Source: Pecten maximus (lineage: Eukaryota). From it: DNA of 64,000 nt. Positions 24,001 to 27,000 of this stretch are shown here, one piece after another (the stretch's first letter is position 1; each line of letters starts with the position of its first letter). Position numbers: made by a program. Where the stretch lies: the NCBI RefSeq assembly GCF_902652985.1, contig NC_047022.1:34844001-34908000 (forward strand), in the 5' to 3' direction.

Positions 24001-27000
24001 TTAACGACCAGTTGTGTTGCCCTTCTTTGAACTATTTCAATTTTAAGGTTGCGTCAAAAGAGAGGCTAAGACAAAGCCTCAAAGTTTTTTTTTTGGAGGT
24101 TTTTGGGGGCCGTTAATGGACCCCATTCCCAATCGAAAAGATTGCATTTTAAGGACAAATTCCCAAAATTTGCAGTTTATTCCTGAATATTTACATTTAC
24201 ACTGCAGCCCCACTATATAACTTTACCAAGCTCACTTGGAAGTTATGAGTCCATAATTTCCAAATCTTTATTATGAAGTCATTATTATAGTGACGTCATA
24301 ATTGTCATGTTGGCGATAACGAAAGATGGCTGTTGAAAAGGCTGTTCCGTCTTTGACGATAATAAGTTGTTCATTCATTATCAGAGTAAAATTCCTGGAT
24401 ATAGTCTTTCAAATTCGCTGTCAAATGTAATTATAAGCATTGAACTGCTTTCATTTGGAAGTTATATTATGGGCTGATGAATGCCAACTGAACAAAGACA
24501 AATTCAACATGAAGAGCTAGCACGCTTCATTAAATTTGCCTTTGTCCAGTTGGCATTCATCAGCACATAACTTCCAAATGAAAGCAGTTCAATGCTTAAA
24601 AAAATCCTTCACAATTCACCAATTTTCCTCCCAAAATGAGACAAAAATTAAGGCCCCATCCCAAACTAGTGAAAAATAGCCATGCCTCAAGTGACCTATT
24701 CTAGCCTCCTGACCGTCCATAAACAATTAACATTTTCGACGACCCCAATACCACTGAACAAATTACAATAAAATTTGGCAAGAAGCTTCCATGGTCAAAG
24801 GTCAACCAAAATTGTGAATTATATGGTCCCGATCCCTGTGGGGCGGGGCCAACATGGTCAAATTGACTAAAATTTCAAAAATCTCTTTAACTCTCCAATA
24901 TGGAAGAATCAAATACTCTTCACAGATGGAGAGGTCTTAGGTTTTTTACCAAAATTGCGAATTTCATTTTTCGTTTTGTTTTGTCATAAGCCTTCCTTAT
25001 ATTTCGTTATACAATCGAGAAGGGGTTTTTGCCTTTTGTTTTGATGTTGTTTTTTAAACTAGAAATACAATAAAACGCATTCCAAGTTCATTGCATACTA
25101 AAACTGACATCGATGGGGATAAAATAGTTATTTTGGGAGGAAGGCAGGCAAGAAAAAATGAGAATTTCTTGGATGTGATACTGCTGATTTAACCCATCGT
25201 ATACTTGCATGAAAGTAACATTACTTTCTACCTCCATGTTGCATCAAATTTGTAAAACCAGACCCTGTAATGAATGGTGACGCATACAACGAGCACACAA
25301 AGTGCCGCTCTTGATCTTTATCACTTCCTTCCTCGTGTTTGTTGTTGTATGGTTCCAAAAACCGCTTGCAAGCTTGAACAGACTTTGAGCCGTTTGCTTC
25401 AAACATCCGCGTGACCAGAAAACGATGATTATAAAAAATTGAACCTTGTAAAAAGTCTGGGTTTGTCAGATTCCTTGAGCGTAAAAAAGGGAGCGAGAAA
25501 TTAAATTGTATTGGTCTTAGCCAAACTCTTAAGTCAGCTGTAGAAATAAAACACCAGAAAGTTGAGCATATATCGAGTACATGCATAGATCTGCATCATT
25601 AGGTGTAGTAGGAGAAGGGGCTTATATTTTTTCTCTTTAAATGATATCAATCTTCATCAATTTTGTTTTGACCAATATTTTTCTTTACAAAGCCTGTTTA
25701 TAATTGGTCAAGTAATAAGACTTTTACAACAACAGTTAGTTTTACTACAAATCAACTTTTGGTTAATGCATGGAAAAAATGATTGTTAGTTTAATACATT
25801 TGGCCAGTGTTGGCCCAACACATGAAAATTAACAGTTGGGTTCATAATGTTCAACCAATGTCTTGGGCCAATGCAAGGCCAAACAGACTGACCAACAGAT
25901 AACATTTGGCCAAGGTATGTCTGCTATCTGGGTCATCTGTCCATCTGATGTCAACTTCTAAAAAAATCGAGAGGCATGGGGTCATGATATTGGGCCAATC
26001 ATCTAGTTATGAAGGGGCTTGGGCTATACCAAGTTCAAGATTGTAGTTTCACCTAGAATGTTAGGGAGTAAGGACTTTTTTTCGCATACTGTAGTGTATT
26101 TATTATCTTTGCAATATTACTCTTCATATATACCGTATATAAGTGGAAACTGTTCCTTATTTTTCAGTCACCATGTCTGACAGAAAGGCAGTCATTAAAA
26201 ATGCTGACATGGCTGAAGACATGCAACAAGATGCAGTGGACTGTGCCACACAGGCTCTAGAGAAGTACAACATTGAAAAGGATATTGCTGCATTTATCAA
26301 GAAAGAGTTCGACAAAAAGTACAACCCAACCTGGCACTGTATTGTTGGACGTAACTTTGGAAGCTACGTAACACATGAAACCAAGCATTTCATCTACTTC
26401 TACCTAGGACAAGTCGCCATTCTACTCTTCAAATCAGGCTGAAAATATGGAAATCTGTTGACTTTGATTCAGAAAAAAAATCTCCCTAGTGTTTTATTCT
26501 TCAACCGACTTCTACTCAATAGATTTTTGTATGACTACACCATCTGTTATGTGTAAAGTTGACATGTTTACTTTGCTAGCCTAAAATTTAAGTTCATAAT
26601 ATATGTGAACAGCAAAACAACATTTTCTTAGTACCAGTATTCAAATTTGAGAGGATATATCCTACACTTATTAAATAATATTTGTATCCGATAAAGTTAC
26701 TACAAAGATATATGTTGACATTGACTGCTATTTGCATTATTCATTGACAGTGAAGGTTATGATATCATGATTTCAATATTCAGACTCAGCATTAGGCATG
26801 AAACAATCAACCTGTTGACCAAAATGAGTTTTTGTCAAACTTTCTGTGCACAATGTTTTATGTACCCAGCATATTTTATTTTATGATTGGGCTAGACTGA
26901 TGTATTAAATAACTGCACATCCTGATATTGTATTACAGTACAGGGGGTTTGCTTTACCTTGTGCATTTGGCTTGTATCAATTCAATTGGAATGTTAGGAC

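What the first reader, a model, noticed from the sequence alone, without database searches (positions are those of the whole stretch)
26296..26421. Gene-conversion-like homogenisation of the 3' half of the LC8 CDS, starting right after codon 41
By manual comparison, copies 1 and 3 differ in 23 of codons 1-41 but only 2 of codons 42-83 (42-67 are identical). Copy 5 is divergent up to codon 53 and then differs from copy 1 at only 3 of codons 54-89. Copies 2-4 are near-identical across the CDS while their UTRs and introns do not align. The homogenised part encodes most of the dimer interface and peptide groove. Inference: conversion sweeps the shared core while paralog-specific N-terminal halves are protected. 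An RNA-level constraint is the alternative explanation.
Basis: partly seen in the sequence, partly recalled or inferred. Interest (0 to 1): 0.65.

Follow-up and report, generated by a model that had tools for sequence, protein, structure and literature searches.

The report
Mosaic gene conversion among LC8 paralogs
Five neighbouring copies of the very conserved dynein light chain LC8 gene have swapped short stretches of their coding sequence, an ordinary process (gene conversion) seen here in a gene family where it does not seem to have been described.

Summary
The window holds five intact 89-codon LC8/DYNLL genes, each with a single coding exon: c1 26173-26442 (+), c2 34859-35128 (-), c3 46956-47225 (+), c4 55818-56087 (+) and c5 63699-63968 (+). 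Synonymous sites in codons 1-41 are saturated between c1, c5 and the c2-c4 group (pS 0.72-0.96). In codons 42-89, c1 is almost identical to c3 and c5.

A GENECONV-like permutation test gives two globally significant fragments. They are c1/c3 at codons 42-67 (p=0.009) and c1/c5 at codons 68-87 (p=0.004). A model with the same tree and a slower 3' half is rejected: LRT p=0.0013, and 0 of 160 parametric simulations reach the observed value.

Copy c5 differs from the other four at 7 of 12 codons in 42-53, so those sites are free to vary. Flanks do not align. There is no sign of RNA structure.

Ectopic gene conversion is the best explanation. It involves at least two tracts with different partners. 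c2-c4 are homogenised over the whole CDS, so "protected N-terminal halves" is not shown. The cross-species test could not be run. This is an ordinary mechanism in a new gene family.

The parts
26173..26442 (+). LC8 copy c1, 89 codons plus stop, single coding exon, AG acceptor 5 nt before the ATG. Mosaic copy.
   Evidence: Pfam PF01221 E=7e-44; 86 of 89 residues identical to DYNLL2 chain 1pwj_A
26296..26375 (+). Tract 1 in c1: 80 nt (codons 42-67 plus 2 nt) identical to c3 47079-47158. Codons 42-53 are also identical to c2 and c4.
   Evidence: GENECONV-like global p=0.0094
26338..26449 (+). Tract 2 in c1: 112 nt matching c5 63864-63975 with 3 mismatches (26373, 26436, 26441). It runs 7 nt past the stop codon into the 3'UTR.
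   Evidence: GENECONV-like global p=0.0041 for codons 68-87
34859..35128 (-). LC8 copy c2, inverted. Four private amino-acid changes (T11, H19, C41, L86).
46956..47225 (+). LC8 copy c3, partner of tract 1 (47079-47158).
55818..56087 (+). LC8 copy c4. Private changes are clustered at codons 72, 75 and 83.
63699..63968 (+). LC8 copy c5. It has its own sequence up to codon 53 and is c1-like from about codon 56 to 7 nt past the stop (63864-63975).

Best explanation
Five tandem LC8/DYNLL paralogs, 8-12 kb apart with one inverted, belong to three old lineages: c1, c5 and the c2-c4 group. Their 5' halves are saturated at synonymous sites. Their introns and UTRs no longer align.

The proposed mechanism is ectopic (non-allelic) gene conversion. 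A break in one copy is repaired by copying a short stretch (tens to about 100 nt here) from a paralog on the same chromosome. Repeated events have overwritten parts of the coding exon.
- c1 carries a c3-type tract (codons 42-67).
- c1 also shares a tract with c5 (from about codon 56 or 68 to 7 nt past the stop).
- c2, c3 and c4 have been homogenised over the whole CDS.

Tracts stop at or near the CDS ends because no homology remains outside. The 5' halves of c1 and c5 stay distinct for one of two reasons. Either they are now too diverged to pair (about 80% identity; longest exact run about 20 nt by my own reading of the alignment, not computed), or conversions that erase paralog-specific residues (such as F41 in c1 or F50 in c5) are selected against.

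Shown: the mosaic pattern, its statistical significance, unequal branch lengths between segments, and flank divergence. Inferred: the molecular mechanism, the direction of transfer, and any role of selection in setting the boundaries.
For: 1. NG86 pS in codons 1-41 is 0.72-0.96 for the seven deep pairs, against 0.21-0.31 in 42-89 for the c1 pairs.
2. GENECONV-like test: c1-c3 has 10 concordant polymorphic sites in a row (global p=0.0094). c1-c5 has 9 in a row (global p=0.0041).
3. The partners and boundaries differ between tracts. c5 differs from all others at 7 of 12 codons in 42-53, while c1-c4 are identical there. P(0 of 12 codons differ) is 1e-4 to 1e-3 at the 5' rate.
4. Region ratios differ between pairs: c1-c3 [25, 6] vs c2-c4 [4, 9], Fisher p=0.004; vs c3-c4 [3, 7], p=0.005.
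5. Partition LRT, proportional vs unlinked branch lengths: 2dlnL=21.75, df 6, p=0.0013. 0 of 160 parametric simulations reach this value. It holds with third positions only (p=0.0038), with HKY+G4 (p=0.0007) and with three partitions (p=3e-5). The c1 branch is 0.116 in the 5' half and about 0 in the 3' half.
6. Fourfold codons: 0-1 of 11 differ in 54-83, against 6-8 of 10 in 1-41 for deep pairs.
7. Flanks do not align beyond about 20 nt. The c1-c5 identity continues 7 nt into the 3'UTR.
8. Among c2-c4 all three pairings are supported by 3'-half sites (62; 74 and 86; 84). 28 of 105 informative-site pairs are incompatible.
Against: - No other species could be compared, so the classic signature is untested (3' halves clustering by species, 5' halves by ortholog).
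- A PHI-like test was not significant (p=0.89).
- In the 3SEQ-like scan of 60 triplets, c1 as a child of c3 and c5 was not among the 12 best. The best triplet (p=0.0007) only just survives Bonferroni correction.
- Only 2 of 10 pairs are globally significant in the GENECONV-like test.
- GC3 of the shared block 54-83 is 0.47-0.50. It is not raised, which GC-biased conversion might have predicted.
- 4 of 12 variable third positions in 54-89 involve CpG. Recurrent mutation could therefore explain part of the homoplasy.
- For codons 54-83, all five copies are about equally close (2-6 nt differences in every pair). Strong local constraint would also give this.
Confidence: 0.75

Rival explanations
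1. Nucleotide-level constraint: an RNA structure, regulatory site or codon-choice selection in the 3' half keeps synonymous sites fixed in every copy, without any exchange between copies.
For: In codons 54-83 all ten pairs differ by only 2-6 nt. 10 of 11 fourfold codons are the same in all five copies. This star-like, flat pattern is what a few free sites under strong constraint would give.
Against: - c5 differs at 7 of 12 codons in 42-53, so those sites are free to vary.
- Boundaries differ between pairs.
- Within c2-c4 the 3' half is not slower than the 5' half.
- The proportional-branch model is rejected even with gamma rate variation.
- The 126 nt fold worse than shuffles (z=+0.87; 166 of 200 shuffles fold at least as well).
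- No Rfam family matches anywhere in the window.
- The fixed codons include a mix of endings such as CTA, GTA, GGA and CGT. The same amino acids use varied codons in the 5' half.
- The c1-c5 identity runs into the 3'UTR.
Confidence: 0.1
2. Chimeric genes made by unequal crossing-over or by duplication breakpoints inside the CDS. The 3' half and everything downstream would then come from another copy.
For: The array is tandem and c1's 3' part resembles other copies.
Against: A crossover would carry the donor's downstream flank. c1's 3' flank matches c5 for only 7 nt and does not match c3. Downstream Smith-Waterman scores for c1 pairs are z=-0.4 to 2.5. c1 also carries two tracts with two different partners.
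Confidence: 0.05
3. Assembly or polishing artefact: reads from paralogs mapped to the wrong copy, and the consensus was homogenised.
For: The identical blocks (80 and 62 nt) are shorter than a short read, and five similar copies lie close together. None of my calls tests this directly.
Against: Mis-mapping needs the copies to be nearly identical there already, so it could erase a few differences but not create the pattern. Each copy keeps private 3'-half differences. The c1-c3 block starts exactly where a uniquely mappable 5' half ends. All five exact proteins are in public sets. The c1 protein is on 5 contigs and the c2 protein on 2, although this says nothing about synonymous sites.
Confidence: 0.05
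4. c2-c4 are simply young duplicates whose flanks were scrambled by insertions and deletions. No conversion is needed for that group.
For: CDS dS among c2-c4 is about 0.17-0.20. A weak colinear patch of about 60 nt is shared in their 3'UTRs, 200-320 nt after the stop. The intergenic DNA is full of tandem repeats.
Against: At dS of about 0.2, the intron and UTR next to the exon should still align at about 80%. Similarity instead ends 7-13 nt before the ATG and 4-18 nt after the stop. Upstream Smith-Waterman scores are at shuffle level (z -0.8 to 0.4 for the three pairs). This rival also does not address c1 and c5.
Confidence: 0.05

Closest known systems
Interlocus (ectopic) gene conversion and partial concerted evolution of tandem duplicates. 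Textbook cases recalled from memory, from no call: globin, opsin, heat-shock and growth-hormone clusters.
   Same: Mosaic similarity confined to part of the coding sequence. Flanks are far more diverged than the tract. Tracts are tens to hundreds of nt long. Different pairs have different breakpoints. Gene-tree branch lengths disagree between segments.
   Different: The family (LC8/DYNLL) was not found described in this context in seven literature searches (search listings only). GC3 is not raised in the tract. The species-level signature is untested.
LC8-type dynein light chain, DYNLL1/DYNLL2 (Pfam PF01221)
   Same: All five proteins are 89 aa and match PF01221 end to end (E 1e-41 to 1e-44). 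c1 is identical to mammalian DYNLL2 at 86 of 89 residues, and at every residue of 42-89. The groove residues F62, Y65, F73, Y75 and Y77 named in PMC3078936 (passages) all lie in codons 42-83.
   Different: There are five tandem single-coding-exon copies, whereas vertebrates are stated to have two DYNLL paralogs (PMC3078936). Paralog-specific residues are at positions 2, 3, 11, 19, 20, 21, 24, 41, 50, 72 and 86.
Synonymous constraint elements or RNA structures inside coding exons
   Same: A stretch of coding sequence with very few synonymous differences between copies.
   Different: The stretch has no fold stability beyond shuffles and no Rfam match. The boundaries depend on the pair, and the same sites vary freely in c5.

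Membership tests
LC8 / DYNLL dynein light chain (PF01221) | Full-length match to the Dynein_light profile above the gathering score | tested here: met
   Five of five copies score 139-148 bits against a cut-off of 29.1, covering profile positions 1-86 of 86.
LC8 / DYNLL dynein light chain (PF01221) | Close identity to LC8 proteins with solved structures, including the groove residues | tested here: met
   c1 is identical to 1pwj_A (DYNLL2) at 86 of 89 residues. F62, Y65, F73, Y75 and Y77 are present in all five copies.
Interlocus gene conversion | Runs of concordant polymorphic sites between a pair that are longer than site permutation gives | tested here: met
   2 of 10 pairs are globally significant: c1-c3 p=0.0094 and c1-c5 p=0.0041.
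Interlocus gene conversion | Different segments of the gene have different histories (branch lengths not proportional) | tested here: met
   LRT p=0.0013. 0 of 160 parametric simulations reach the observed value. The result is robust to three model variants.
Interlocus gene conversion | The converted tract is much more similar than the adjacent non-coding flanks | tested here: met
   Similarity ends within about 20 nt of the CDS. Flank Smith-Waterman scores are at or near shuffle level.
Interlocus gene conversion | Within the tract, paralogs of one species are closer to each other than to their orthologs in other species | not testable with these tools
   No eukaryotic nucleotide collection is on hand. 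Genome contigs holds only bacteria and archaea.
Interlocus gene conversion | GC enrichment of converted sites (frequent, not obligatory) | tested here: not met
   GC3 of codons 54-83 is 0.47-0.50 in all copies. In codons 1-41 it is 0.41 (c1), 0.54 (c5) and 0.66 (c2-c4).
Structured RNA or synonymous constraint element | Folding energy below that of shuffled sequence, or a known RNA family | tested here: not met
   z=+0.87 for 26296-26421 and z=-0.02 for 26173-26295. There are 0 Rfam matches in the window.
Structured RNA or synonymous constraint element | The same constrained interval in every copy and across species | tested here: inconclusive
   Not met for codons 42-53, where c5 varies at 7 of 12 codons. 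Codons 54-83 are shared by all five copies. The cross-species part is not testable here.

The most novel reading that the evidence does not exclude
Domain-resolved concerted evolution that is bounded by selection. In this reading the dimer and peptide-groove core of LC8 is kept identical at the nucleotide level across at least five paralogs by recurrent conversion. Conversions that would erase paralog-specific residues of the N-terminal helices are purged. Examples are position 41 (F in c1, C in c2, Y in c3-c5) and F50 in c5. The tract edges would then mark functional specialisation of otherwise near-identical hub proteins.

The c1 tract begins at the first base after codon 41. This fits the reading. 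By chance, 3 of the 23 differing codons in 1-41 are non-synonymous, so the odds of this adjacency are about 0.13.
Probability: 0.15. Interest if true: 0.5.

Novelty: new member of a known kind. Interest (0 to 1): 0.3.

Why it matters
LC8 is one of the most conserved eukaryotic proteins and a dimerisation hub with many partners. A five-copy array whose core is repeatedly homogenised, while the N-terminal halves stay distinct, shows that gene trees and dS-based dating of LC8 duplicates can mislead. The 3' half looks young and the 5' half old.

If the tract edges are set by selection, the few paralog-specific residues become candidates for functional differences between LC8 isoforms. Residue 41 is the main one. 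Whether such isoforms differ in function is called still controversial for vertebrate DYNLL1/2 in PMC3078936 (passage). Otherwise this is a clean but ordinary example of partial concerted evolution.

Tried and rejected
- **First tblastn.** It used an off-by-one, out-of-frame translation. It still located the five copies. It was repeated in frame, giving five hits and no fragments.
- Timed out with no output. It was rewritten.
- **PHI-like homoplasy test.** Not significant (p=0.89). There are too few informative sites (15).
- **3SEQ-like triplet scan.** 60 triplets were tested and the best p was 0.0007. The signal mostly reflects clustered private changes of c4 at codons 72-84, not the c1 mosaic. 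It was not used as support.
- **Single-breakpoint max-chi-square.** Weak for c1-c2 (p=0.11) and c1-c4 (p=0.20). The extreme 3' end (codons 84-89) is divergent again, which a single breakpoint cannot model.
- **RNA explanation.** Fold z-scores were +0.87 and -0.02. The Rfam gathering search of the whole window gave 0 matches.
- **GC-biased conversion signature.** Not seen.
- **Cluster look-up.** The 90% clusters mix LC8 from all animals. It gave no information on how old the paralogs are. Further protein searches were therefore not spent.
- **Literature.** Seven searches found no paper on conversion, concerted evolution or synonymous constraint in LC8/DYNLL. I saw only the listings. The exceptions are PMC10886578 and PMC3078936, of which I read matched passages. 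Supplementary files were not consulted.
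Full report
**What is there**

The window (GC 0.31-0.42, no N) holds exactly five LC8-type dynein light chain genes and no fragments.
- c1 26173-26442 (+)
- c2 34859-35128 (-)
- c3 46956-47225 (+)
- c4 55818-56087 (+)
- c5 63699-63968 (+). This copy lies 32 nt from the window's end, so the array may continue.

Each copy is an intact 89-codon ORF in one coding exon. Each has a pyrimidine tract and an AG exactly 5 nt before the ATG. 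This suggests a shared gene structure with an intron in the 5'UTR. The 5' exons were not identified.

All five proteins match Pfam PF01221 end to end. c1 is identical to mammalian DYNLL2 (1pwj_A) at 86 of 89 residues and at every residue from 42 to 89. The protein's C-terminal half is therefore invariant at the amino-acid level. Only synonymous sites carry information there.

**Check of the observation**

The finding's coordinates, 26296-26421, are codons 42-83 of c1.
- c1 vs c3 differ at 23 of 41 codons in 1-41 and at 2 of 42 codons in 42-83 (68 and 74). Codons 42-67 are identical.
- c1 vs c5 differ at 19 of 41 codons in 1-41, at 7 of 12 in 42-53, and at 3 of 36 in 54-89 (55, 67, 88).
- c2, c3 and c4 differ from each other at 10-13 of 89 codons.

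By Nei-Gojobori counting, the proportion of synonymous differences in codons 1-41 is 0.72-0.96 for the seven deep pairs (c1 or c5 against anything). That is saturated. In 42-89 it is 0.21-0.31 for the c1 pairs.

blastn self-comparison shows that similarity between copies ends 7-17 nt before the ATG and 4-18 nt after the stop. Smith-Waterman scores of 800-nt flanks are at shuffle level upstream (z -0.8 to 1.7, one pair 3.3). Downstream they are weak (z -0.4 to 4.8). The only downstream signal is a patch of about 60 nt shared by c2, c3 and c4, 200-320 nt after the stop.

**Is it more than chance?**

On the 74 codons whose amino acid is invariant and degenerate, a Fisher test comparing halves gives:

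| Pair | p |
|---|---|
| c1-c3 (16/30 vs 5/44) | 0.00015 |
| c1-c2 | 0.015 |
| c1-c5 | 0.022 |
| c1-c4 | 0.034 |
| six pairs without c1 | >=0.075 |

A max-chi-square test leaves the breakpoint free and uses 20000 shuffles.
- c1-c3: p=0.0022, break after codon 40.
- c1-c5: p=0.00095, break after codon 55.
- c2-c4: p=0.00075, break after codon 82.
- c2-c3: p=0.048.
- The other six pairs: p=0.07-0.29.

A GENECONV-like test used 55 polymorphic sites and 10000 column permutations, with a global correction over all ten pairs. It finds two globally significant fragments. They are c1-c3 at codons 42-67 (10 concordant sites, p=0.0094) and c1-c5 at codons 68-87 (9 sites, p=0.0041). The other eight pairs are not significant.

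**Anatomy of the mosaic**

c1 is made of three parts.
- Codons 1-41 are its own.
- 26296-26375 (80 nt) is identical to c3 47079-47158.
- 26338-26449 (112 nt) matches c5 63864-63975 with three mismatches. This stretch continues 7 nt past the stop codon, where c2-c4 read differently.

c5 is distinct up to codon 53. c2-c4 are alike over the whole CDS.

In the 3' half the informative sites support all three pairings within c2-c4: site 62 for c2+c4, sites 74 and 86 for c2+c3, and site 84 for c3+c4. 28 of 105 pairs of informative sites are incompatible. Some of this may be recurrent mutation, because 4 of the 12 variable third positions in 54-89 involve CpG.

**Conversion or constraint?**

Five results speak against a fixed nucleotide-level constraint on the 3' half.
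1. Codons 42-53 differ at 7 of 12 codons between c5 and all other copies, while c1-c4 are identical there. Those sites can change. At the 5' rate, the chance of 0 of 12 differing codons is 1e-4 to 1e-3.
2. The boundary depends on the pair. It falls after codon 41 for c1 vs c2-c4 and after codons 53-55 for c5.
3. Within c2-c4 the 3' half is not slower than the 5' half. Nucleotide differences for 1-41 vs 42-89 are 4 vs 9 (c2-c4) and 3 vs 7 (c3-c4), against 25 vs 6 for c1-c3. Fisher p is 0.004 and 0.005.
4. A partitioned likelihood test compares one tree with branch lengths scaled by a rate per half against free branch lengths per half.
   - It gives 2dlnL=21.75, df 6, p=0.0013.
   - 0 of 160 alignments simulated under the scaled model reach that value; the maximum is 21.42.
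   - The result holds for third positions only (p=0.0038), with gamma rate variation (p=0.0007) and with three partitions (p=3e-5).
   - The c1 branch is 0.116 in the 5' half and about 0 in the 3' half.
5. There is no sign of an RNA element. The 126 nt fold worse than shuffles (z=+0.87) and the 5' half gives z=-0.02. Rfam gives no match in the whole window.

Codon choice does not explain the pattern either. GC3 of the shared block is 0.47-0.50. Its fixed codons have mixed endings. The same amino acids use varied codons in the 5' half. Fourfold codons differ at 0-1 of 11 in 54-83, against 6-8 of 10 in 1-41 for deep pairs.

**What remains open**

In codons 54-83 all ten pairs differ by a similar small number, 2-6 nt. 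This flat pattern fits ongoing exchange among all five copies. Taken alone, it would also fit a few free sites under strong constraint. Only a comparison with other species can settle it.

A polishing artefact cannot be excluded from the sequence alone. It could only erase a few differences between blocks that were already near-identical.

Negative or weak results:
- The PHI-like test gave p=0.89.
- The 3SEQ-like scan of 60 triplets had a best p of 0.0007. It reflects clustered private changes of c4 rather than the c1 mosaic.
- There is no GC enrichment.

**Mechanism**

The best-supported reading is ectopic gene conversion between tandem paralogs. Short patches are copied during repair of a break, and they are confined to the coding exon because homology ends there.

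Once part of the exon is homogenised it stays a good substrate. The 5' halves of c1 and c5 are about 80% identical to the others. By my own reading of the alignment (not computed), their longest exact run is about 20 nt. They are therefore poor substrates. This feedback alone can produce sharp edges.

It is compatible with the c1 tract starting at the first base after codon 41 (F in c1, C in c2, Y in c3-c5). However, 3 of the 23 differing codons in 1-41 are non-synonymous. The adjacency therefore has about a 0.13 chance of arising without selection. In addition, c2-c4 are homogenised through their N-terminal halves.

The groove residues F62, Y65, F73, Y75 and Y77 and the swapped beta-sheet dimer interface are described in PMC3078936 (passages). 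His55 at the dimer interface appears in a reference title seen in PMC10886578.

**Comparison with what is known**

Partial concerted evolution of tandem duplicates is a textbook phenomenon. The examples I name are recalled, not taken from a call. Seven literature searches found no paper reporting it for LC8/DYNLL (listings only). I rate this a new member of a known kind, of modest interest.

**Other matters**

The neighbouring SR-protein gene is spliced. I looked at it exon by exon only: a Pfam scan of one ORF and a motif scan. I did not build or search a joined model. The window does not look human. Supplementary files of papers were not consulted and are unlikely to bear on the claim.

Noticed in passing
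window 11701-11721 (-) and 20984-21400 (-): An SR-protein gene of SRSF1/SRSF9 type lies head-to-head with c1. The ORF at 20984-21400 holds an RRM_1 domain (E=5.5e-15). An exon with the SWQDLKD motif of the second RRM lies at 11701-11721. From memory, not from a call: human DYNLL1 sits next to SRSF9 and DYNLL2 near SRSF1. This would be an ancient conserved neighbourhood.
   Followed up: partly
5 nt upstream of each ATG: 26168, 35133 (-), 46951, 55813, 63694: All five copies have a pyrimidine tract and an AG acceptor exactly 5 nt before the ATG, and they carry the whole CDS in one exon. The four same-strand copies could have separate promoters. Alternatively they could be alternative terminal exons spliced to a shared 5' exon. 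No 5' exon could be identified from sequence.
   Followed up: no
window 34859-35128 (-), copy c2: c2 is inverted relative to the other copies. It carries four private amino-acid changes (A11T, Q19H, Y41C, F86L), while c3 has none and c4 has one (H72N). This could mean relaxed constraint or a new specificity. The exact c2 protein is nevertheless present on 2 public contigs.
   Followed up: no
window 56031-56066, copy c4 codons 72-83: Three private changes of c4 (codon 72 non-synonymous, codons 75 and 83 synonymous) cluster within 36 nt. They drive the best 3SEQ-like signals. The cluster could be a tract copied from an LC8 copy outside the window.
   Followed up: partly
about 200-320 nt downstream of the stops of c2, c3 and c4: A weak colinear patch of about 60 nt is shared by the 3'UTRs of c2, c3 and c4 (Smith-Waterman z 2.8-4.8). 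It is either a remnant of common ancestry or a small regulatory or polyadenylation element.
   Followed up: partly
window 38197-38667 and 41024-41750 vs 50224-50950 and 52249-52498: Colinear intergenic blocks of 75-90% identity lie between c2/c3 and between c3/c4, interrupted by different insertions. They may be a transposable element or a remnant of the duplication unit.
   Followed up: no
window 589-1070, 11006-12746, 29228-30077, 31759-32703, 44245-45071, 51045-52069, 58060-59339, 59385-60981: The intergenic DNA is rich in tandem repeats. One array has a 32-nt unit repeated 44 times (59586-60981). There are several satellites of 142-159 nt. One family is present at 589-1070, 11008-12746 and 58060-59339.
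   Followed up: no
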